A program made the position numbers and the translations under genes. Positions 2,431 to 46,314 of a DNA stretch of 64,000 nucleotides are shown here, piece by piece. Below the pieces are notes generated by a model. The model was not told where the DNA came from. It did no database searches and was given only the letters and a program-made list of their open reading frames with translations. The DNA comes from a virus. Within the stretch, counting starts at the first letter, position 1. Each line of letters begins with the position of its first letter. Where the stretch lies: the IMG/VR virus record IMGVR_UViG_3300033418_000001, positions 44,444-108,443 of that record; one strand, written 5' to 3'.

Positions 2431-3135
2431 TCAGTCCCACCAGAGTCGCAGCACGGAACCCTTCCACTGGCGCCCCGAGGGGACGAGAGCCTTCGGCCCG
2501 CCGCCATGGTACTTGTCCACGTCCTCTTGCGTGAGGAAGCGTTCCCCCGGCTTCACCATGTCGATTTCATCGGCGCGCGTGCTGCGCTTGGCGAGCTTGG
2601 CGATTTCCTTCAGCGCCCGCTCCGGCCCATGCACGTAGACCACGGGCGACATCTCACGCCCCGGGGACACCTTGATTTCGTCGTTCCACTTGGCGAGGAA
2701 GTTGGCGACGCGGTTGGTGTTGAAGGCGTTGTACCCGCCCGGGGTCGCCGTGCCCATGGTGTTGCGGAAGGCATCGACCGACATCTCCTTCTCGGCCACG
2801 AAGCGCAGCTTGTGGGTACGGTACCCGTCGATGATGTCCCGCCGGTCCTTGAACTCGCGGTACATGCCACGCGGGTCAGTGGCGGGCTTGGGTTGCGCGG
2901 CGGCAAGCTGCCCTTCCGTGGACATGCCATTGCGCGGACCCATCTTCGGCGGGGCCGTGTTGAAGCCGAGGCCATCGTGGGTGTCCCCGGTAGATCGAGC
3001 GTGTTCCGCTGCCGGGTTGGCAGCGACCGGGCCTTCGAAGTCGGCAGCAGCGGCAGCGCCGCCGTTGCTCGTCGTGAAGCGACCATCCGGCCCGTGGTTG
3101 TGGTTGTACTTGCGGAGGCGGAAGAAGTAGTTCAT
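2431..3135 (-). CDS. Tag-bearing hypothetical protein, candidate capsid cargo
   Basis: N-terminus MNYFFRLRKYNHNHGPDGRFTT; lies between MuF and the protease. Confidence 0.7.
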   Translation of the reverse strand: MNYFFRLRKYNHNHGPDGRFTTSNGGAAAAADFEGPVAANPAAEHARSTGDTHDGLGFNTAPPKMGPRNGMSTEGQLAAAQPKPATDPRGMYREFKDRRDIIDGYRTHKLRFVAEKEMSVDAFRNTMGTATPGGYNAFNTNRVANFLAKWNDEIKVSPGREMSPVVYVHGPERALKEIAKLAKRSTRADEIDMVKPGERFLTQEDVDKYHGGGPKALVPSGRQWKGSVLRLWWD

Positions 3136-3147
3136 GGTCGCGCCCCC

Positions 3148-3981
3148 TTACCAACCCATGGCGCGAAGCTTCTTCGCGTTCTTCTCCTGCGCGGGCGACA
3201 TCTGCACCTTCTGCCACTTGTCGCCCATCTTGGCGTGCGTGATGTCGTGGGTGTAGACCGAACCCATCTCGGTGTAGGTGCCGTAGACGGTGGCGAGGCG
3301 GATGTTGCCCTTCTTGTTGTCCTCCATGCGGGCTTCCCACCCGTTGCGGAGCTTGATGCGCGTGCCGCGCTTGATGTCGTTGGCGTAGAGCGCCGCCGGG
3401 GCTTGGGTGCCCTGCGCGGTCTGCGTGGACGCGGAGTGGCCCTGCGTGCCCGACGTGAGGCCCGTGCTGCCCGAGGCGTTGTCGCCGTCCGTGGCCTTGT
3501 TCTCGCCCGAGCGCGGGCCACCGGCATCACCGATGGCGCCCACGTCGCCGCCCGAGGGCGTGCCCTTGTTCTCGCCCGAACGGGTGCCCCCGGCGTCCTG
3601 CCCCGTGATGGCGGCTGCGGAGGTCAGGGCGTCGTTCTGTTGGGAGACGGCGGGCGTGCCCGCGTTCTCGCCGCTGCGCGGGCCGGAGACCGAGCCACCG
3701 GGCTTCGGGCCACCTGCCGGGATGGCCTTGTTCTCACCGCTGCGCGTACCGCCTGCGTCCTGCCCGCTGACCGACGTGGCCGGGGCCGGAGCCATCTTCA
3801 CCGGGTCGGTGCGCGGGTCGCCGCCACGATTGGCCGAGGTGCCTTGGCTCTCGCCGGAGCGCGGGCCTTGGACCGGGGGCTGCGCGTTCTTGCCCTCGGT
3901 GCCTGCGGGCATACCGGAAGCGAAGCGACCATCCTTGCCATGGTTGGGGTTGTACTTCAGGACTTGCGCGAACTTGGTCAT
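3148..3981 (-). CDS. Tag-bearing protein with G(P/T)RSGE(N/S) repeats and a small C-terminal beta domain
   Basis: N-terminus MTKFAQVLKYNPNHGKDGRFAS; five RSGE repeats in a low-complexity G/A/T/P region. Confidence 0.75.
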   Translation of the reverse strand: MTKFAQVLKYNPNHGKDGRFASGMPAGTEGKNAQPPVQGPRSGESQGTSANRGGDPRTDPVKMAPAPATSVSGQDAGGTRSGENKAIPAGGPKPGGSVSGPRSGENAGTPAVSQQNDALTSAAAITGQDAGGTRSGENKGTPSGGDVGAIGDAGGPRSGENKATDGDNASGSTGLTSGTQGHSASTQTAQGTQAPAALYANDIKRGTRIKLRNGWEARMEDNKKGNIRLATVYGTYTEMGSVYTHDITHAKMGDKWQKVQMSPAQEKNAKKLRAMGW

Positions 3982-38368: not shown

Positions 38369-39469
38369 TCATCCCAGTATCTCCCCCGTCTCCTTGTCGA
38401 TCTTCGCCGTCACCGGAATCTTGTCGATCTTGGTGGCCATGGTGGTGACTGCCGCCTCGCACTTGCGCGCGAACTTCGCCTCGGCCCGGTACTCATCCTT
38501 GATCACGTCCAAGGTCTTGTACTCCTTGCCGAACAGTTCCCACGAAACCTTGCCCTTGATCAACTGCCCCTGCGCTTTGAGGAAGGACGCCACGGTGTTC
38601 CACGCTTCGACTTGACCCACGTCAAGATGCTCATGGGCGATCAGTGCTTGGTCGAACTCAAAGCTGCGTCCGACGATAGGGCACTTGTACTTCTTCACGA
38701 TCCCCGACACGTGGATGACGGCAGGCTTGTCCTTGCTCACCGACTCGATCATCACCTTCTTGCCATACAGGCGCAAGGTCAGCGACGACGCGAACTTGAG
38801 AGCGTTGCCGCCGCTGAACTTCTCGGGGTCGCCATGGGTCTTGCCAATCTCGTAGCGGGTCTGCGCGATGGCGACGAGCGCCGGGAGGTGGTCAAGCTTG
38901 CTCTCCCGGGACAGGGCCATGGTGGACTTGCGGACCATCTTGCTGACGATGGCCGCGCTGCCCGCCACGATCTGCTTCTCGGCCCCCGACACGATTTCGT
39001 TCTCGGTGACCATGGCCGACACGGAGTCCACCAACACCATGCCCACGTCCTTGGCGTAGAGGAAGGCTTCCACCGCATCGACCGCCTGCTCCGCGTTGTC
39101 GGGCTGCACGACAATGAGCCGCTTGGTGTCGAGGCCGAGGATGCTGCCCCAGTCGTTGTCCCATGCGTGTTCCGCGTCGATCAGCACGGCGGTCTCGCCC
39201 ATGGTCTGCACCTGCCGCAGCGCAAGGTAGCCCTGCATCGACTTGGCCGATGACTCGGGGCCATAGACGACGCTCACCCGGCTGCGGGGGATACCACCCC
39301 CCGTGGCCAGATCGAGCGGGAAGATGCCGGTGGGGATGCGGGGAACCGGCTTGAACACCCCACCCTTGGATGCGACCTGATCCCCGTGCTGCTTCTTCAG
39401 TTCCCCGAGAACCTTGTCCGACGCGAGCGAGCCTGCCTTAGTTGTCTTGAGACTGACTGCCACCGTCAT
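38369..39469 (-). CDS. recA: RecA-like recombinase
   Basis: IPTGIFPLDLATGGG, YGPESSAKS, IDAEHA, LVDSVSAM, GGNALKFASS. Confidence 0.9.
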   Translation of the reverse strand: MTVAVSLKTTKAGSLASDKVLGELKKQHGDQVASKGGVFKPVPRIPTGIFPLDLATGGGIPRSRVSVVYGPESSAKSMQGYLALRQVQTMGETAVLIDAEHAWDNDWGSILGLDTKRLIVVQPDNAEQAVDAVEAFLYAKDVGMVLVDSVSAMVTENEIVSGAEKQIVAGSAAIVSKMVRKSTMALSRESKLDHLPALVAIAQTRYEIGKTHGDPEKFSGGNALKFASSLTLRLYGKKVMIESVSKDKPAVIHVSGIVKKYKCPIVGRSFEFDQALIAHEHLDVGQVEAWNTVASFLKAQGQLIKGKVSWELFGKEYKTLDVIKDEYRAEAKFARKCEAAVTTMATKIDKIPVTAKIDKETGEILG

Positions 39470-39811
39470 GCTCCTCGGTCAGCGACGCCATGCGGGTGTC
39501 CACCCACGCCAAGCACTCCTCGTAGCAGGCGTCCACGCTCTCAGGGTCGCACGGCATGTGGATGGAGACGCCCACCTTCACGCTGTTGAAGTCGCCGAGG
39601 TTGATGGTGCGCTGCGCCTGCACGCCGACGTTGGCGTAGACCTTGGGCACCTCGCGCAGGGGTTGCACGGTGGTCTTCACCACCTCGCTCCCTGTCTTGC
39701 TGTGCGCGACCGAAGTCTCCACGATCCCCGCCACCTGCGTCTTCTCGGAGATGACCTGCTTGGCCGTCTTCTTGTTGGGCACCGGCTTGGCCTTCTTGAT
39801 GTTGATCGCCA

Positions 39812-40246
39812 TCACGCCGCCTTCTGCCACGTGGCCTTGATGCGGGACACGATTGCGGCCTGCTTGTCAGCGAACTTGGGGTCGGTGTAGTGCATCGCGC
39901 TGCGGTGGGTCACCAACCGCGAGACCTGATACACGTTCTTCGGGTGGTAGCGCCGACGCTGCACGCCATCGGTGGTGCGCGGGATGAGCTTCTTGCGCTC
40001 CAAGTTGCGGATGGTCTCGGGGCTGCACCCCACTTCAGCAGCGAACTCGCTGATCAGCATGTAGTTCCTCACGACGCGCTCCCTGTTCTGCCACGGCTTG
40101 TTCTTCTTCCGCCACTCCCGGCACACCTTCAGATTCTTCTCCCGGTACTTGCGGTCCTCTTGGTACCGTTCCCTCCGGCGCTGCGCCACCTTTTCCTTGT
40201 TGGCTTGGTACCAGATTTGGAACTTGGTCAGTTGCTTCTTTGCCAT
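39812..40246 (-). CDS. MerR-type HTH protein
   Basis: ISEFAAEVGCSPETIRNLERKKLI...RRRY. Confidence 0.7.
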   Translation of the reverse strand: MAKKQLTKFQIWYQANKEKVAQRRRERYQEDRKYREKNLKVCREWRKKNKPWQNRERVVRNYMLISEFAAEVGCSPETIRNLERKKLIPRTTDGVQRRRYHPKNVYQVSRLVTHRSAMHYTDPKFADKQAAIVSRIKATWQKAA

Positions 40247-40255
40247 CTTGGTCCT

Positions 40256-41629
40256 CTACAGGTAGATCACCTCGCCCTTCAACTCAGAGGAGGTGTATTG
40301 CTTGAGACGGGCCTTGAAGTAGCCTTCCAGAATGGCGCTGTCAGTGTCCACGAAGTCCACGATCACCGGCTTGGGCTTGCCCGGGTACTCACGCAACACT
40401 CGCCCTGCGGCTTGGGTCACGTTAGCCCTCGGGGTCGCCAAGATCAGACAATCCCACCATGGCACATCCGTTGCCTCACTGGTCATACCGTAGGTGCAGA
40501 AGACGAGGTGCTTGGTCTTCGCCACCTCAAGGTCGGCCTTCTTCATGCCACCCTTGTAGTATGCCATGTCACTGTCAGGCACTCCGGCCCGTTTGCACAT
40601 CTCCCGCAGCATACCAAGGTGCTTGTCCTCTGCCAAGTCCGACATGACGATGGTCCATCGTCCCTTCTTGTAGGCTTGCACAGCGGTGTTGACGATCATG
40701 GCATTGCGAATGCCGTCCTGCGCCATGGCCGTGATGATGTGCATCAGCTTGCCCGCCTCATGCGGCATCTGAATCCTGATCAGGTTGCCGTGCGAGTCCC
40801 GACGCATCACCCGGGGCAGCTTCCACCCGGTCATCTTGACCAACACCTTCGGCGGCACCGGGATCAGCTTGGCCTTGACCCCCACCCTGCCGATGTGACC
40901 ATGGAACACCCCGTCCTTGCCGTCGATGCGCTGCGGTGTGGCGCTGAAGCCGAGGCGTAGCTTGGTGGGGAACATGGCAGCGACCGTGCTGAAGGTCTCT
41001 GCGGCCATGTGGTGCACCTCATCGAAGATGACCAAGCCGAACTCGGACTTGTCGAAGTCGTACTCGCGCTGCGCGAGGGAGTGCACCATGGCCACCACGA
41101 TGCCCCGGCCCTCCACCTCGCACTTGTTCTGTTGGATGATCCCCACCTTGGGCGCGGAGGGGAAGAACTTCGCCACCTCCTTGGGCCACGACGTGAGCAG
41201 GTCTTCCTTGGTGACGACGATCAGCGTCTTCACGCCTAGCTGCGCCGCGATGTTGAGAGCGCAGAAGGTCTTGCCGAAGCCCGTGGACGCTTCCACGATG
41301 TGCGAGTGGTCCGCCTTGAGCAGGGCCACCGACTCCTTGATGACGCGAGCTTGCTCCGTGTTGCGCGGGGAGAACGCAGGGGCACCCATGTCGATGGGCA
41401 GGCCCGCACTGCGCTTGTCCACCTCGGTGCCTCGCCAGTTCTGCACCATCTCGCGCGGCACGCCGATGAGCGGAGCCATGCCGAAGCCGAAGGCCACGGA
41501 AGCAGTGCCCGCCGTCGCCATGTTGTACGCCTCATCGAACCGGTTGATGCGGTTCAGCGAGTCGTGCATCTTCTGCGTGTGGTGGTACCACGCACAGGAG
41601 TCAACCAACAGGGGTTTGCCGTAGATCAT
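40256..41629 (-). CDS. Superfamily 2 helicase
   Basis: ASTGFGKT, IFDEVHH, GFSATP, QAAGRVLR. Confidence 0.9.
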   Translation of the reverse strand: MIYGKPLLVDSCAWYHHTQKMHDSLNRINRFDEAYNMATAGTASVAFGFGMAPLIGVPREMVQNWRGTEVDKRSAGLPIDMGAPAFSPRNTEQARVIKESVALLKADHSHIVEASTGFGKTFCALNIAAQLGVKTLIVVTKEDLLTSWPKEVAKFFPSAPKVGIIQQNKCEVEGRGIVVAMVHSLAQREYDFDKSEFGLVIFDEVHHMAAETFSTVAAMFPTKLRLGFSATPQRIDGKDGVFHGHIGRVGVKAKLIPVPPKVLVKMTGWKLPRVMRRDSHGNLIRIQMPHEAGKLMHIITAMAQDGIRNAMIVNTAVQAYKKGRWTIVMSDLAEDKHLGMLREMCKRAGVPDSDMAYYKGGMKKADLEVAKTKHLVFCTYGMTSEATDVPWWDCLILATPRANVTQAAGRVLREYPGKPKPVIVDFVDTDSAILEGYFKARLKQYTSSELKGEVIYL

Positions 41630-41985
41630 TCTCCCTTTCCCCAACGCTCGCTCACCACTTCGTAGTAAAACTCTTCGGGGGTATCCCTCGGCGGATAACA
41701 CCACACCGCAGAACGAGCAACCAACGCCCGGGCCTCTGCTTCGTCATGGTGGTTCTTCACCTTGGCCCGTACCAAAGTTTGCCGCACGATCTGGGACACC
41801 CTCTGCTGAGAGATGCCCCACTTGCGACCTAGCGCGGCGCAAGTCATGCCGCAGAGATGGTCCAACGTGATCATCGCGTTGCGGCGCCGAACCGAAATAC
41901 CGGTCTCCCATGGCTCCGCGTTGACGTTGATGACCTGCACGCTCACTCCTTTGAAGGTGGGGGGTTCCGGCCTGTATCGTTTCAT
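41626..41985 (-). CDS. Sigma-region-4-like HTH protein
   Basis: GMTCAALGRKWGISQQRVSQIV. Confidence 0.6.
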   Translation of the reverse strand: MKRYRPEPPTFKGVSVQVINVNAEPWETGISVRRRNAMITLDHLCGMTCAALGRKWGISQQRVSQIVRQTLVRAKVKNHHDEAEARALVARSAVWCYPPRDTPEEFYYEVVSERWGKGE

Positions 41986-42017
41986 CCGGCGTGGGCAAGT
42001 CCCAACCCCCCGTACTG

Positions 42018-42806
42018 CTACATGTGCTTCCCGGCCTCCGCATCCGCCGCTTCCGCGTCGGGTGCCGACTCGCTGCCGATGGGCTTGCCGCTACCGAAGC
42101 CCTTCGCGCGCAGTTCCTTGCCCGAGAGGAACACGATTTCCTTCTCGTAGTCGGCGGGGACGAAGACCGTGGTGGTCTTGCCGTCCTTGCCCTTGCGCGT
42201 GTACTGCTTTTGCAGCGCCGTGATGTTGCCCTTCTCTTCGAAGTCGAAGCTGCCCCCGACGTTGGGATCGCTGTCGTTGAGCCGCGAGATTTCGAAGGTG
42301 GCCCCGGCGAGGCCATCGCGCTTGGTCGCCATCTGTTGCAGCAGCTTGATGGTGTTCTTCTTCGCCACGTAGAGCTTCGGGGTGTCCTTGTAGACGCCCT
42401 TCTTCCCCTTGTAGGTGCGGTGGTCGATGATGGTCAGCACGCCGACGAGCGACGGGAAGTCACCACCTTCGCACAGCGGGCAGGGTTCCGACTCGGCGAT
42501 GCAGACGAACTGCTCCCAGTCCCCGTTGACCTGCACGGAGTGTTCGCGGAACGTCAGGATGTCGAGCGTGCCATCGGGGAGCAGGTTGCCGTCCACGAAG
42601 GTCACACGGGCGGACTCGCCCTTGGGAATCCAGAACCGCCACATCCGGTTCTTCTCGGCGAAGTGCTTGTCGGCGTCCTTCTCGTACTGCTCCATCGCCG
42701 CCGTCGCTGCCTTGCCGCGCTTCGCCCAACTCGGGGTCTTGCTGCCGGTCGGGGACTTCTCTTGGGCCGCAGGCCCGGTCTTCTTTACGATTGCCATGAT
42801 AGGCAT
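42018..42806 (-). CDS. Single-stranded DNA-binding protein (gp32-like)
   Basis: RFWIPKGESARVTF, C...PCPLC, acidic tail; adjacent to primase. Confidence 0.7.
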   Translation of the reverse strand: MPIMAIVKKTGPAAQEKSPTGSKTPSWAKRGKAATAAMEQYEKDADKHFAEKNRMWRFWIPKGESARVTFVDGNLLPDGTLDILTFREHSVQVNGDWEQFVCIAESEPCPLCEGGDFPSLVGVLTIIDHRTYKGKKGVYKDTPKLYVAKKNTIKLLQQMATKRDGLAGATFEISRLNDSDPNVGGSFDFEEKGNITALQKQYTRKGKDGKTTTVFVPADYEKEIVFLSGKELRAKGFGSGKPIGSESAPDAEAADAEAGKHM

Positions 42807-42857
42807 CTCCTTCAGGTTTCAAAGTCGCCACGTAGGGCGCACGTCAATGTACAACGA

Positions 42858-43814
42858 TCAAACCACAGGGTCAAGCTTCACGAAAGGGTCCAATGCTTCT
42901 CGGATGCTCTCGGATGACATGTCGCCCGGGTCTTTGCTCCCCTCGGGCAACTGCACGCGCTGCGTGTCGGGCAGCATGTCGCGCAGGTGCCAGAAGACTT
43001 GCTCTCCCGCGAGGTCGCTGTCGGTCATCGCCAACACACCTGCGGCAAGCGAGATGGTCGCCATCTTGCGCTTGTTGATGGACGCCATGAAGATGGCGCA
43101 CACGTTCTTGTAGTGCGGGTAGACCGCCGCCAGATCGAACGGGCCTTCCACCACGACGAGAGGCTTCAGTGGGTTGATCCATGACTCGCCGTAGAGGACC
43201 ACCGACGTGTTGTTGTTCCCGTTCCACACGAAGTCGTGGTACCGCTTGGCCGTCACGGAGCGCCCACGGAAGCCTGCCAGTTGCCCGCCGCGATGGCGGA
43301 TCGGGAAGCAGACCATGCCACGCTTCTGGTCCCACCGCAGATCGAGCGCCCTGCACGTGGCCTCGGTGATGCGGCGCGTGATCAGGTAGGCCCGCGCCGG
43401 GGCCACGCTCCATGCGGGGGTGTAGTCGTCAAGGAACCACTCCGGCCATGGTTCGAACACCTTGGTGTCACTGGTGTCCTTCCACTCATGGGGCATGTAC
43501 CCAATCTCGTCTTCCTGCGCGACGATCTGCCGTGCCTTGGCGAAGTCGATGTCGGTCTTATCCCACCGCTTGGCATCGTGGTGCAACTCGATCAGAAGCT
43601 CGCTCAGGTCGCGCCCCTTGAGGCCGCAGGCGAAGCAGTTGTACCCGCTCTTGCCGTCCTCCACCACGTTGATGCCGAAGGACGGGTTGCTGTCGTGGCC
43701 GTGGGCATGGCGGGAGAAGGCGCCGGGGCAGCTTGCCTGCACCCACTCGCCTTCGTCCTTGGCGCCCTGTGACCCGAGCGCCGCCAGAAGCTCTACGATG
43801 CCCTGCCGATTCAC
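42858..43814 (-). CDS. DNA primase (Zn finger + TOPRIM)
   Basis: SCP...H...D.NPSF...YNCFACG; VVEGPFD; MTDSDLAG; KDPGD. Confidence 0.88.
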   Translation of the reverse strand: MNRQGIVELLAALGSQGAKDEGEWVQASCPGAFSRHAHGHDSNPSFGINVVEDGKSGYNCFACGLKGRDLSELLIELHHDAKRWDKTDIDFAKARQIVAQEDEIGYMPHEWKDTSDTKVFEPWPEWFLDDYTPAWSVAPARAYLITRRITEATCRALDLRWDQKRGMVCFPIRHRGGQLAGFRGRSVTAKRYHDFVWNGNNNTSVVLYGESWINPLKPLVVVEGPFDLAAVYPHYKNVCAIFMASINKRKMATISLAAGVLAMTDSDLAGEQVFWHLRDMLPDTQRVQLPEGSKDPGDMSSESIREALDPFVKLDPVV

Positions 43815-44203
43815 TGCTCGTCTTTTGCAGATGTCTGCACGGACCCGCCGATGGTCTTCACCGCGTCCAACTCGGTCTTGACGGGCGGGAACTCCACCTT
43901 CTCCACCCACAGCCACAACAGGTAGGCGCACGTCGCCGTCTTGTCCTCATGGCGAGGCTCCCACGACCGCAGGATCGACGCCACGTGCTTGTACGCCGCC
44001 TCGGCGCTGACGCCCTCCTTGGTGTAGAACAGCGTGCCCTGCGGCAGTCCTTCGAAGAACCACCGGTCCACGACCTTGCACCATGGGTCGGTGCCGTCGC
44101 AGAACCTTTCGGGGATGTCATCCGGCGGCAGCAGGGACCGCAACTCTTCCCCGTAGGCACCGAAGGCGCGAACCGCATCGGTGGTGACTCTTGGCATGAA
44201 CAT
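43811..44203 (-). CDS. Hypothetical phage protein
   Basis: AAAGGAGTG RBS; WFFEG...SWEPRHEDK. Confidence 0.65.
   Translation of the reverse strand: MFMPRVTTDAVRAFGAYGEELRSLLPPDDIPERFCDGTDPWCKVVDRWFFEGLPQGTLFYTKEGVSAEAAYKHVASILRSWEPRHEDKTATCAYLLWLWVEKVEFPPVKTELDAVKTIGGSVQTSAKDEQ
43826..43839. repeat. 14-bp quasi-palindrome copy 12
   Basis: Gene end just upstream of primase (QTSA). Confidence 0.95.
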
Positions 44204-44219
44204 CAGGCACTCCTTTGCT

Positions 44220-44788
44220 GACGATGGGATTGCCCCTTACGGGGGCAAGTCGCTTCTCCATGGCCACTTCACTGAAGACTCACTCTCCGAAGAGGGCTTG
44301 GTGGTATGCAGCGGTGGGGGAATCAGCAGTCCCGCATCCTCGGGTAGGCGGGGCATCAGCCCCTAACCACACTTCTAACCCTAAGACTCACCCTGTCTCG
44401 CGCTACCGGCATCCTTGTGGGACTCGATGTACCCACTAAGGAGGGCGTCTAGCTGCACACTACCAAACCCACTTCGGAGAGCGGGGGGAGGCATCGTAGC
44501 TGATAGCCACCCCCACTCCGGTTTCCCCACGATCACTGAGCCTGAGACGAGAACGATATAAGACCGGTGTCCTGAGCCACTAGACGACCCCCCTGTGGTA
44601 CGCGCTACGCCGCGCAGTGGCAGGAGGGGCGGGATTTGAACCCGCGTTTCCGATCAAGTTGTGGGCGAACTTGATCCTCAAAATCAGTGCCCACGTCCCA
44701 GTGTTCGTGCCTTACGATACCGATGTCTTGGCAATACGACAGTCAGTGACGACTACGCCAACGACAACGATAACGCTGCCAAGCCCTC
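44220..44788 (-). ncRNA. Large structured ncRNA candidate containing a permuted tRNA-like domain
   Basis: No credible ORF; 30-bp inverted repeat 44283-44312/44452-44481 whose mismatches include two G-U wobbles on the minus strand; hexamer tracts; tRNA halves. Confidence 0.7.
44563..44654 (-). ncRNA. Circularly permuted tRNA-Glu-like element (3' half precedes 5' half)
   Basis: ATCGG-AAAC-GCGGG-TTCAAAT-CCCGC-CCCTCCT-G-CCA (44654-44618), 23-nt linker, then AGGGGGG-TC-GTC-TAGTGGCTCAG-GAC-A-CCGGT (44594-44563); acceptor and anticodon stems pair across the halves. Confidence 0.8.
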
Positions 44789-45559
44789 CTATGCCTTGAG
44801 CGGCGCGAGCAGGATCGCAACCACCTTGTCCGCGATCTTCTCGGTCACCGCTTCCGTTTCGTTCGCGCGCATCCGCGCCTGCTTGACCTCCACCATCAGG
44901 TCATCGACCACCTTGATGGCTTCGGCCTTTTGCAGCGCCGTGCACGCACCGCTTCGCTTGGTGATGGAGTTCTTCCCCACCACGATGTCCTTGTTCACCG
45001 CCGCCACCTGCGCCGGGTGCTTGTCCGTCGCCGGGGACATCTGCACCGGCACCGTGACCTTCTCGGTCTTGGTGGTCTCGTCGGGGAACTTGGTCTCCCA
45101 GATGCCGACACCCAGATCGCCCGCCTTGACCCAGTGCTTGGTGGCATCGAGCGTCGGCATCTCGGCATACAGCGCCCGCAGACGCATCAGCCGCGCTTCC
45201 AGACCGAGCAGTTCATCCACCGGCAGGCCGGGGAGCAGCACGGTGCCGCGCCACATCACGTCGCCCGTCGCCTTGCGATTGGTCGCGTTCTTCTGGTACT
45301 GAAGGTCTTCCGCCTTGGCGAAGATGTCGAGCGCGTAGGTGAGCGTGTCGAGGACCGTGGTGGTCACCGGCTTCTCTTCCCGCGCCGCCGCCTCGATGGC
45401 CGCGTTCTCGGGCGTGCCCTCGATCATGGTGAGGGACTTGCTGTGGCCTTCGAAGAAGTGACCGACGTTCTTGAACTTCTTCAGCGTGTCCTCGTACAGA
45501 GCATTCCACGCCCCGGTGGGCGTCTTCTCTGCGGCGAGCAGTTCGTGCAGCTTTGCCAT
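44789..45559 (-). CDS. Uncharacterised protein directly upstream of the ncRNA
   Basis: MAKLHELLAAEK...PATDKHPAQV...KQARMRAN; own promoter and RBS. Confidence 0.8.
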   Translation of the reverse strand: MAKLHELLAAEKTPTGAWNALYEDTLKKFKNVGHFFEGHSKSLTMIEGTPENAAIEAAAREEKPVTTTVLDTLTYALDIFAKAEDLQYQKNATNRKATGDVMWRGTVLLPGLPVDELLGLEARLMRLRALYAEMPTLDATKHWVKAGDLGVGIWETKFPDETTKTEKVTVPVQMSPATDKHPAQVAAVNKDIVVGKNSITKRSGACTALQKAEAIKVVDDLMVEVKQARMRANETEAVTEKIADKVVAILLAPLKA

Positions 45560-45599
45560 GGTTCTCACTCCTTTGGTTGGATGACGACAACGAGATGTG

Positions 45600-45627
45600 A
45601 TTCTACTACGTGTTTCCGAAGTGTCAA
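45600..45627 (-). promoter_or_regulatory. Sigma70-type promoter of the protein+ncRNA unit
   Basis: TTGACA-N16-TAGAAT, then AAAGGAGTG. Confidence 0.8.
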
Positions 45628-46314
45628 CTACTCCTTCGGGGCAGGCAACTCGATGGGGGGCTTCTCCCCCTTCAGCACAGCAAGCCCAGTGCGAGACACG
45701 ATGCTGCTGACGTAAGCCTCCACCTCGGTCTTGGCGTCCTCGGTGACCTTCTCCATGTGTTCTCCGAACTGCTCCGCGACGAACTTGACGGAGGAGGTTA
45801 CACCATAGCCCGCCACCTCCAAGGCCATGAGGATTTCCTTCTTCGCCTTGGCCGACAGGCTAGTGCCCTCGATCATGGTCCGCACCTTGTCCAACCCCGC
45901 GTTGGTCTTGAGCAACGTCTTCTTCATCTCCACAGCGAACTGATCCTGCCGCCTCTCCGGTGGGGGCAAGCCCGGGATGTTGTAGTTGCCCTTCACGGCC
46001 AACAGAGTGCAGGGGGTGCCGCTGCCGACGTTGAGCGTGGAGATGAACGTGGCCCACTGCGCCTCCGACATCTCCACCTCGGTGATGAGGCCGCGAGCGA
46101 AGTGCCAGTCCCGCGACAAGCTGCGATGCAACTCGCTGTGCTTGATTTCGATGCGGATGGTGTTGTGGTGGGTGAAGTCGGAAGCGTACAACTGCGTTTG
46201 GCCACTCACCCGATGCGCGACGATCTGCGCGAAGGCCGGGTGCGTGGTCACCGTCTCCGACACCACGGAGGTGCCCTTCTCTGTGACGGGCTTCTCGATG
46301 GGCCGCATCGTCAC
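45628..46314 (-). CDS. Hypothetical phage protein
   Basis: HPAFAQI...EVEMSEAQWATFIST.N.G.G.PCTL. Confidence 0.65.
   Translation of the reverse strand: MTMRPIEKPVTEKGTSVVSETVTTHPAFAQIVAHRVSGQTQLYASDFTHHNTIRIEIKHSELHRSLSRDWHFARGLITEVEMSEAQWATFISTLNVGSGTPCTLLAVKGNYNIPGLPPPERRQDQFAVEMKKTLLKTNAGLDKVRTMIEGTSLSAKAKKEILMALEVAGYGVTSSVKFVAEQFGEHMEKVTEDAKTEVEAYVSSIVSRTGLAVLKGEKPPIELPAPKE

What the first reader, a model, noticed from the sequence alone, without database searches (positions are those of the whole stretch)
44563..44654. Circularly permuted tRNA-Glu-like domain with encoded CCA and an open anticodon arm
SEEN (minus strand): the T-arm, acceptor 3' strand, G discriminator and CCA come first, then a 23-nt linker, then the acceptor 5' strand, D-arm and anticodon 5' strand. 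AGGGGGG/CCCTCCT pair 7/7 with one G-U, GCGGG/CCCGC close TTCAAAT, GTC/GAC close the D-loop, and CCGGT pairs with the upstream ATCGG. The D region TCGTCTAGTGGCTCAGGACACCG closely follows bacterial tRNA-Glu. There is no anticodon loop; the flanking RNA enters and leaves there. KNOWN: this T-acceptor-D order occurs in YrlA-type Y RNAs and two-piece tmRNAs, but no Ro60/TROVE gene is in the window and it lacks tmRNA's G3-U70 and D-less form. INFERENCE: RNase P and 3' trimming could yield a two-piece, possibly aminoacylated tRNA mimic, for example a decoy for anticodon nucleases or a ribosome/synthetase ligand.
Basis: partly seen in the sequence, partly recalled or inferred. Interest (0 to 1): 0.85.

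Follow-up and report, generated by a model that had tools for sequence, protein, structure and literature searches.

The report
Phage tRNA-mimic RNA beside DUF7873
The flagged stretch is a real back-to-front tRNA look-alike at the core of a roughly 300-base phage RNA that almost always follows an unstudied protein gene (DUF7873); it resembles bacterial Y RNAs but lacks their Ro60 partner, so it is probably an undescribed RNA-protein unit.

Summary

- **Structure:** it is not chance and not a tandem-tRNA remnant. In 80 viral loci chosen only by the upstream protein, a covariance model finds the element downstream on the same strand in 73. All 20 pairs covary (95% paired against 40-49% in slid controls), and the tRNA tertiary nucleotides are kept.
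- **Family traits:** a 7-bp acceptor stem and encoded N-CCA (about 80%).
- **Context:** the window lies in a 108-kb phage with no Ro60/TROVE, RtcB, SmpB or CCA-adding enzyme. The core sits in a conserved RNA of about 306 nt (44778-44473), directly after a DUF7873 gene that has a near-consensus promoter.
- **Known families:** Rfam YrlA scores 12 bits against a 69-bit cut-off. The Ro60-binding motif is absent, and G3:U70 occurs in 1 of 92.
- **Partner protein:** DUF7873 folds confidently but has no recognisable structural relative.

Best reading: a YrlA-like tRNA mimic, probably opened by RNase P and acting with DUF7873. This scan has noted the same module on other DNA. I found no publication describing it. 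Processing, binding and function are inferred, not shown.

The parts
45600..45627 (-). sigma-70-like promoter TTGACA-16-TAGAAT (11 of 12) just upstream of the DUF7873 start
   Evidence: the only such site in 43700-45700, against 0.2 expected from shuffles
44789..45568 (-). DUF7873 gene (259 aa), candidate protein partner
   Evidence: Pfam PF25283 E 5.6e-62; 209.5 bits in the genome search; AF2 pLDDT 95, pTM 0.84
44473..44778 (-). conserved structured RNA (~306 nt) shared with 12 close relatives; starts about 10 nt after the stop codon
   Evidence: alignments A6/A7; 37 of 49 predicted pairs have compensatory changes
44715..44775 (-). helix P1: CGUUAUCG (44775-44768) with CGGUAUCG (44722-44715); mostly invariant, so weakly supported
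44706..44709 (-). 5' strand (CACG) of the long-range helix P2 that encloses the tRNA-like core
   Evidence: 2-5 double changes per pair
44528..44531 (-). 3' strand (CGUG) of helix P2
44652..44676 (-). variable 9-bp hairpin GAUCAAGUU/AACUUGAUC; its 3' end overlaps and competes with the anticodon-stem 3' strand
   Evidence: present in only some relatives
44563..44654 (-). permuted tRNA-like core (four-way junction)
44629..44645 (-). T-arm GCGGG-UUCAAAU-CCCGC
   Evidence: T54 T55 C56 A58 invariant in 92/92
44622..44628 (-). acceptor 3' strand CCCUCCU
   Evidence: all 7 pairs covary
44618..44621 (-). discriminator G plus encoded CCA; predicted mature 3' end at 44618
   Evidence: CC in 76/92, A76 in 75/92
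44595..44617 (-). 23-nt linker, itself a 6-bp hairpin (-8.7 kcal/mol); predicted to be removed
   Evidence: linker 2-76 nt in the family
44588..44594 (-). acceptor 5' strand AGGGGGG; predicted RNase P cut between 44595 and 44594
   Evidence: precedent PMC4201824
44569..44585 (-). D-arm GUC-UAGUGGCUCAG-GAC with A14, G18, G19
44546..44560 (-). clade-conserved single-stranded motif UAUAUCGUUCUCGUC; one of four UAUCGU-type repeats found only in this RNA
44476..44519 (-). covarying 3' hairpin with a loop sequence conserved in relatives (GGCAGG-type; CAGCUACG in the window)
44292..44472 (-). window-specific tail; CGCUG..CCAAGCCCUC (44313-44292) can pair with the RNA's 5' end (44788-44774). Not conserved, so it may not belong to the RNA

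Best explanation
This is one member of a widespread family of circularly permuted tRNA mimics encoded next to a DUF7873 gene, mostly in phages. SHOWN: the RNA folds as a tRNA-type four-way junction whose acceptor stem is closed by a linker and whose anticodon stem is open. It keeps the nucleotides that build the tRNA L-shape. It is embedded in a larger conserved RNA, and it is inherited together with DUF7873 and with no other gene. INFERRED: gene and RNA are transcribed together from the promoter at 45627-45600. Host RNase P cuts before A1 (44595|44594), and exonucleases trim the linker back to the encoded CCA (44618). This gives a two-piece RNA held together by the acceptor stem, anticodon stem and helix P2, with a free tRNA-like acceptor end. 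DUF7873 binds this RNA, as Ro60 binds YrlA. SPECULATIVE: the particle presents an anticodon-less tRNA body and CCA end to a host factor that recognises tRNA shape or acceptor ends, either as a decoy or as a recruiter, during infection.
For: Structure: 95.3% of 1,783 pair cells are paired against 40-49% in slid controls. All 20 pairs have double changes, and the covariation score is 0.929 against 0.218 in shuffles (0 of 500 reach it). RNAalifold recovers the junction unprompted. Tertiary nucleotides: T54 T55 C56 A58 in 92/92, U8 89, A14 84, G18G19 87, and the Levitt pair covaries G:C 55 / A:U 23. Linkage: 73 of 80 protein-selected viral loci have the element downstream on the same strand, at a median of 151 nt. 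Two misses lack downstream sequence and three have it upstream. 4 of 7 elements found by DNA pattern alone have a 30-38% identical DUF7873 directly upstream. 5 of 7 MAG loci keep the linkage. No other neighbour is conserved. Processing: 7-bp stem, N-CCA in about 80%, G1:C72 in 65/92, linker ending in TAT in 33/92; M. smegmatis YrlA is cut by RNase P and gains CCA in vivo. Promoter.
Against: There is no transcript, cleavage, binding or phenotype datum for any member. DUF7873 is near-neutral (pI about 6-7) and has no recognisable RNA-binding or other known fold. In the window the -1 base is C and the 1:72 pair is A-U, which is less ideal for RNase P than the family consensus. Gene linkage can also reflect a cis role for the RNA. 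Some permuted elements occur without a detectable DUF7873, in incomplete records. An earlier check within this scan priced the protein-binding reading at only about 22 in 100.
Confidence: 0.6

Rival explanations
1. Cis-acting 3' element of the DUF7873 mRNA. The tRNA-like fold only serves RNase P-dependent 3'-end formation or protects the message from 3' exonucleases (as tRNA-like ends do for some long non-coding RNAs), and the released RNA has no function of its own.
For: The conserved RNA starts about 10 nt after the stop codon, with no room for its own promoter. The strand is always that of the gene. RNase P-type features are conserved.
Against: Three loci have the element upstream of the gene. 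A promoter was annotated between gene and RNA in Klebsiella phage FBKp24. About 300 nt of extra covarying structure, a conserved hairpin loop and intact D-arm tertiary nucleotides are far more than end formation needs. Two or three modules occur in 15 loci.
Confidence: 0.15
2. A classical YrlA/Y RNA that works with Ro60, either a cryptic phage copy or the host's.
For: Same permuted topology and tertiary mimicry as YrlA. The best Rfam YrlA hit in the phage falls on this element. One phage record with similar modules does carry a TROVE gene.
Against: YrlA scores 12 bits against a 69-bit cut-off and matches only the tRNA-like part, model positions 30-81. There is no TROVE in the CheckV-complete 108-kb phage. 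The Ro-binding motif GNCGAA(N0-1)G is absent from the window RNA and occurs at chance frequency in relatives (25/77 against about 29% expected). No conserved terminal helix exists.
Confidence: 0.07
3. A two-piece, aminoacylated tmRNA-like or otherwise chargeable tRNA mimic that enters the ribosome or feeds a tRNA-dependent enzyme.
For: Permuted gene order as in two-piece tmRNA; encoded CCA and a 7-bp acceptor stem.
Against: ARAGORN finds no tmRNA and the Rfam tmRNA families do not match. G3:U70 occurs in 1/92, the discriminator is variable, the variable loop is short and a full D-arm is present. The phage has no SmpB. From established synthetase identity rules (my own knowledge), an anticodon-less RNA without G3:U70 or a long variable arm has few possible chargers, and no shared identity set is seen.
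Confidence: 0.05
4. A permuted pre-tRNA that is circularised or ligated and then processed into a true tRNA (anticodon UAU), as in the permuted tRNA genes of some algae and archaea.
For: The re-joined halves plus the natural next 7 nt (CUUAUAU) are called tRNA(tat) by ARAGORN. Depositors annotated tRNA-Ile(tat) or Sup-TTA downstream of DUF7873 in two phages.
Against: The flanks of the anticodon stem are not conserved as an anticodon loop across the family. The phage has no RtcB or other ligase signal. The FBKp24 'tRNA' overlaps half of a permuted module and looks like a caller artefact. The conserved motif continues well beyond 7 nt.
Confidence: 0.03
5. A decayed remnant of two tandem tRNA genes, or chance complementarity.
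For: Most hits of my architecture pattern in viral contigs are ordinary tandem tRNAs, and tandem tRNA-Glu copies also give 7/7 acceptor pairing.
Against: No complete tRNA covers either half here or in the relatives. The permuted order, pairing and CCA are kept through extensive compensatory change in more than 90 diverged loci.
Confidence: 0.01

Closest known systems
YrlA (Y RNA-like A; Rfam RF02553), partner of bacterial and phage Ro60/Rsr (Chen et al. 2014, PMC4201824; structure preprint 10.1101/312249)
   Same: Circularly permuted tRNA mimic with the order T-arm, acceptor stem, D-arm, closed by an anticodon-like stem that leads into the rest of the RNA. tRNA tertiary contacts are kept. It is encoded next to its protein partner and occurs in phages. 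The M. smegmatis member has a 7-bp acceptor stem, is cut by RNase P and gains CCA.
   Different: There is no Ro60 gene, no Ro-binding helix or GNCGAA motif, and the Rfam score is far below the cut-off. A 7-bp acceptor stem with encoded N-CCA is the rule here, whereas most YrlAs have closed, variable-length stems judged poor RNase P substrates and 'lack a free CCA end'. The linked gene is DUF7873. Extra conserved parts are present (helix P2, a 3' hairpin with a conserved loop).
Two-piece (permuted) tmRNA of alpha-proteobacteria, some beta-proteobacteria and cyanobacteria
   Same: The gene encodes the 3' acceptor piece with CCA before the 5' acceptor strand, and an intervening segment is excised to give two base-paired pieces.
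   Different: No G3:U70, a full D-arm, no tag reading frame detected, and no match by ARAGORN or the Rfam tmRNA models.
tRNA-like 3' elements processed by RNase P (mascRNA-type ends of long non-coding RNAs; viral tRNA-like structures)
   Same: A tRNA-shaped module downstream of a longer transcript that host tRNA enzymes can recognise.
   Different: Those elements are in normal, not permuted, order and lack a dedicated linked protein gene.
Permuted tRNA genes of Cyanidioschyzon and some archaea
   Same: The 3' half with its acceptor end is encoded before the 5' half, and a linker joins the acceptor strands.
   Different: Those genes carry an anticodon loop restored through a circular intermediate made by the splicing endonuclease and ligase. 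No anticodon loop, junction motif or such enzymes are seen here.

Membership tests
YrlA / bacterial Y RNA (RF02553) | Permuted tRNA-like domain (T-arm, acceptor stem, D-arm, closed by an anticodon-like stem) with tRNA tertiary nucleotides | tested here: met
YrlA / bacterial Y RNA (RF02553) | Reaches the Rfam gathering score | tested here: not met
   12 bits against 69, E 1.2, model positions 30-81 only; not listed at E<=10 in the local scan
YrlA / bacterial Y RNA (RF02553) | Ro60-binding module: helix of the 5' and 3' ends carrying GNCGAA(N0-1)G | tested here: not met
   Motif absent from 44800-44204. In relatives 25/77, about the chance rate of 29%. The terminal helix exists only in the window and is not conserved
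YrlA / bacterial Y RNA (RF02553) | Encoded beside, or in the same genome as, a Ro60/TROVE gene | tested here: not met
   No TROVE match in the 108-kb, CheckV-complete phage, and the controls rang. Use of a host Ro60 cannot be excluded
Two-piece tmRNA | G3:U70 alanine identity pair | tested here: not met
   G3:C70 in the window; G:U in 1 of 92 family members
Two-piece tmRNA | Detected by ARAGORN or the Rfam tmRNA models, with a tag reading frame | tested here: not met
Functional tRNA | Contiguous cloverleaf with an anticodon loop | tested here: not met
   ARAGORN and Rfam tRNA find nothing in the native order. The stem opens into non-conserved single strands
DUF7873-linked permuted tRNA mimic (class seen by this scan; no publication found) | Same strand as, and within a few hundred nt downstream of, a DUF7873 gene | tested here: met
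   The window core starts 135 nt after the stop codon; 73/80 relatives
DUF7873-linked permuted tRNA mimic (class seen by this scan; no publication found) | 7-bp acceptor stem followed by encoded N-CCA | tested here: met
DUF7873-linked permuted tRNA mimic (class seen by this scan; no publication found) | Two tandem modules, as reported for many members | tested here: not met
   The window has one module; the next-best hit is below 8 bits with filters off. 58 of 73 viral loci also have one, so this is a variable feature, not a defining one
DUF7873-linked permuted tRNA mimic (class seen by this scan; no publication found) | Physical binding of the RNA by DUF7873 | not testable with these tools
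   Only genomic linkage is available

The most novel reading that the evidence does not exclude
Phages carry a Ro60-independent ribonucleoprotein. Host RNase P opens a permuted tRNA mimic into a two-piece RNA with a free CCA end, the orphan-fold protein DUF7873 binds it, and the particle captures or diverts a host factor that reads tRNA shape or acceptor ends (for example a tRNA-directed defence toxin or a tRNA-processing enzyme) to favour infection.
Probability: 0.3. Interest if true: 0.85.

Novelty: new variant of a known kind. Interest (0 to 1): 0.72.

Why it matters
tRNA mimicry by non-coding RNAs is known from only a few systems (tmRNA, viral 3' ends, YrlA), and for YrlA the purpose of the tRNA-like domain is still unknown. 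Here the same unusual permuted design recurs in a large family: DUF7873 has 1,910 clusters at 50% identity and occurs in 75 cultured-phage records. The family lacks Ro60 and has a canonical acceptor end as the rule. That separates the tRNA-like module from Ro60 biology and supplies a new candidate partner protein with no known fold. It also offers cultured, tractable phages (Ralstonia phiRSL1, Rhizobium, Gordonia, Vibrio and Klebsiella phages) in which the function of such mimics can be tested. On the practical side, it explains odd 'tRNA-Sup' or unannotated gaps in phage genome annotations.

Tried and rejected
- **Standard RNA detectors:** ARAGORN on the window and the whole phage found nothing at default stringency. 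The low-stringency calls lie elsewhere and look spurious. Rfam at gathering thresholds gave nothing, and the permissive scan gave only weak partial T-arm hits.
- **Phage DNA search:** blastn of the locus against cultured phages found no match.
- **Architecture pattern:** The corrected scan returned mostly ordinary tandem tRNAs, which I filtered by acceptor pairing and ARAGORN.
- **Second module:** none found in the window.
- **DUF7873 identity:** nothing informative from PDB by sequence, Foldseek PDB (best E 0.012, TM about 0.1), VIA-align wide (generic helical bundles only, Z <= 8.7, inside the tool's stated background), BFVD, ESM Atlas, PADLOC or NCBIfam, or the literature.
- **Bacterial genome scan:** the 67-sequence alignment was too diverse to give a search pattern. 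The 8-sequence alignment gave one narrow pattern and only 7 loci, so the cellular distribution is under-sampled.
- **Terminal helix:** the helix closing a ~500-nt domain is present in the window but at chance level in 12 relatives.
- **Orphan elements:** three pattern-found elements had no DUF7873 in their records, but those records are 7-60% complete, so this is inconclusive.
- **Unavailable:** Burroughs & Aravind 2016 and the 2020 Ro60 review are not held, so I could not check whether a Ro-independent partner has been proposed in print.

Full report
**What is there.** On the minus strand, 44654->44563 reads as:
- anticodon-stem 3' strand ATCGG, then AAAC
- T-arm GCGGG-TTCAAAT-CCCGC
- acceptor 3' strand CCCTCCT, discriminator G, CCA
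- a 23-nt linker
- acceptor 5' strand AGGGGGG, then TC
- D-arm GTC-TAGTGGCTCAG-GAC, then A
- anticodon-stem 5' strand CCGGT

Pairing is 7/7, 5/5, 3/3 and 5/5, and the closing stem extends to 6 bp. ARAGORN finds no tRNA or tmRNA in the window or in the whole phage at default settings. Rfam at gathering thresholds finds nothing. When the two halves are swapped back and the natural next 7 nt serve as a loop, ARAGORN calls a 76-nt tRNA, whereas the native order gives none.

**Context.** The window is the last 64 kb of a 108,443-bp IMG/VR viral record that CheckV rates complete. The element lies in a ~585-nt gap without a credible ORF, inside a replication module with primase, helicase and a UvsX-like recombinase. 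Directly upstream on the same strand is a 259-aa DUF7873 gene (PF25283, E 5.6e-62). That gene is preceded by a near-consensus sigma-70 promoter, TTGACA-16-TAGAAT. The phage has no TROVE/Ro60, RtcB, CCA-adding enzyme, SmpB or reverse transcriptase, and the control genomes rang in each of these searches.

**It is a conserved structured RNA.**
- Five viral loci found through the DUF7873 protein all carry the same permuted element downstream, with different but complementary acceptor strands.
- A covariance model built from nine loci was run on 80 further viral loci selected only by the protein. 73 have a hit downstream on the gene's strand, at a median of 151 nt after the stop codon.
- Of the seven misses, two have under 180 nt of downstream sequence and three carry the element just upstream.
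- On 92 distinct sequences, 95.3% of pair cells are paired against 40-49% when partners are slid. All 20 pairs show double changes, and no shuffle out of 500 reaches the covariation score. That alignment is fitted to the model, but RNAalifold on a plain MAFFT alignment recovers the same junction.
- The nucleotides that build the tRNA L-shape are kept: T54 T55 C56 A58 in 92/92, U8 in 89, A14 in 84, G18G19 in 87. The Levitt pair covaries as in real tRNAs.
- This rules out chance and decayed tandem tRNAs. Tandem tRNAs did turn up as controls in my pattern scan and were recognisable as complete tRNAs.

**Linkage from the other direction.** Seven permuted elements were found purely by a DNA architecture pattern. 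Four of them have a 30-38% identical DUF7873 gene immediately upstream. Five of seven loci from metagenome-assembled genomes keep the pair. None of the window's other neighbours recurs beside DUF7873, so gene and RNA move as a two-part unit. The link is not absolute. Two pattern-found elements lie in phage tRNA arrays with no DUF7873 in their incomplete records. A third lies in a record that carries a TROVE gene and has three tandem modules.

**Family traits at the acceptor end.** CC follows the discriminator in 76/92 and A76 in 75/92. The 1:72 pair is G:C in 65/92. The linker is 2-76 nt and ends in TAT in 33/92. The discriminator is free (T 31, A 27, G 26, C 8). G3:U70 occurs once. Longer linkers, including the window's, form their own hairpin. 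These are the features of a good bacterial RNase P substrate. The published precedent is M. smegmatis YrlA, which has a 7-bp acceptor stem and in vivo is cut at the RNase P site and gains CCA, giving two pieces (PMC4201824). The YrlA structure paper stresses that most YrlAs instead have closed stems of other lengths and no free CCA end (10.1101/312249). What is the exception in YrlA is the rule here.

**The RNA is larger than the flagged stretch.** Conservation with 12 close relatives runs from about 10 nt after the stop codon to about 44473, roughly 306 nt. Its parts are:
- helix P1 (44775-44768 with 44722-44715, little covariation)
- a covarying long-range helix P2 (CACG 44709-44706 with CGUG 44531-44528) that encloses the core
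- four UAUCGU-type repeats that occur nowhere else on that strand of the phage
- a covarying 3' hairpin (44519-44476) whose loop sequence is conserved; a similar GGCAGG-type loop follows the module in Rhizobium phage RHph_Y1_11, whose protein is only 37.5% identical

A first-reader note on this genome suggested a terminal helix closing a ~500-nt domain. The pairing exists (44788-44774 with 44313-44292; a run that long appears in 3 of 200 shuffles), but no relative has an equivalent. I leave the 3' boundary open between about 44473 and about 44292. The window has a single module, whereas 15 of 73 viral loci have two or three.

**The protein.** DUF7873 has 1,910 clusters at 50% identity, nearly all stand-alone proteins of about 250 aa. 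It is annotated 'hypothetical protein' in 75 cultured-phage records. The AlphaFold model is confident (pLDDT 95, pTM 0.84): a helical bundle with long beta-hairpins. Neither Foldseek nor VIA-align against the PDB, nor BFVD, nor the ESM Atlas gives a convincing relative. PADLOC and NCBIfam are silent. The protein is near-neutral. Its role is therefore inferred only from linkage.

**Comparison with known families.**
- It works like YrlA but is not a member. Rfam's YrlA model places its best hit in the phage on this element, but at 12 bits against a 69-bit cut-off and only over the tRNA-like part.
- The Ro-binding motif is absent from the window and at chance frequency in relatives, and no Ro60 gene is present.
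- It is not tmRNA: no G3:U70, a full D-arm, and no detector hit.
- It is not a functional tRNA: across the family the anticodon stem ends after 5-7 bp and opens into A-rich and U-rich strands with no loop-like pattern.
- The tRNA-Glu-like D region is confined to the window's close relatives.

**Annotation in cultured phages.** The RNA is unannotated in phiRSL1, where there is a 485-nt gap. In Klebsiella phage FBKp24 a 'tRNA-Sup-TTA' overlaps half of a permuted module. In RHph_Y1_11 a normal-order tRNA-Ile(tat) lies between the module and the 3' hairpin.

**Verdict.** The most likely mechanism is a DUF7873-RNA particle presenting an anticodon-less tRNA body with a free CCA end. Processing, binding and function remain inferences. 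The scan has recorded the same gene-RNA module on other genomes, and my tests here agree with those notes. I found no paper that describes it, but two possibly relevant papers could not be read.

Noticed in passing
window 44292-44472 and 44774-44788 (minus strand): CCAAGCCC (44301-44294) can pair either with GGGCUUGG at the RNA's 5' end (44786-44779) or with GGGUUUGG (44470-44463), giving two exclusive long stems. The 270-nt tail is modestly structured (z -2.1) and is not conserved in relatives.
   Followed up: partly
L172:3018-3097 (Klebsiella phage vB_KpM_FBKp24, NC_061421.1): The annotated 'tRNA-OTHER / tRNA-Sup-TTA' overlaps the T-arm half of a permuted module (3060-3154), with another module at 2862-2934. 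It is probably a gene-caller artefact and not a suppressor tRNA.
   Followed up: partly
L171:3058-3300 (Rhizobium phage RHph_Y1_11, MN988558.1): A permuted module (61.5 bits) is followed by an annotated normal-order tRNA-Ile(tat) and then a hairpin with a CGGCAGGC loop like the window clade's 3' hairpin. The 'tRNA' may be a domain of the same RNA.
   Followed up: partly
L036:619-1002 (IMGVR_UViG_3300033052_000019): Three tandem permuted tRNA-like modules lie in a phage record that also encodes a TROVE/Ro60 protein elsewhere (G002:C1:2764-3594). The Rfam YrlA model does not reach its cut-off there either.
   Followed up: partly
L017:7530-7605 and L022:379-456: Permuted modules with perfect 7-bp acceptor stems and CCA sit inside phage tRNA gene arrays. 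No DUF7873 or TROVE was found in the (incomplete) records.
   Followed up: partly
window 38369-43931 (minus strand): A replication and recombination module lies next to the RNA: UvsX/RecA-like recombinase (38369-39469), superfamily-2 helicase (40256-41704) and Toprim primase (42858-43931).
   Followed up: no
genome C1:2827-3375 (outside the window): ARAGORN at a lowered threshold calls a permuted tmRNA with tag ADDLRLHRVEIAK. It is absent at default stringency and is probably spurious.
   Followed up: no
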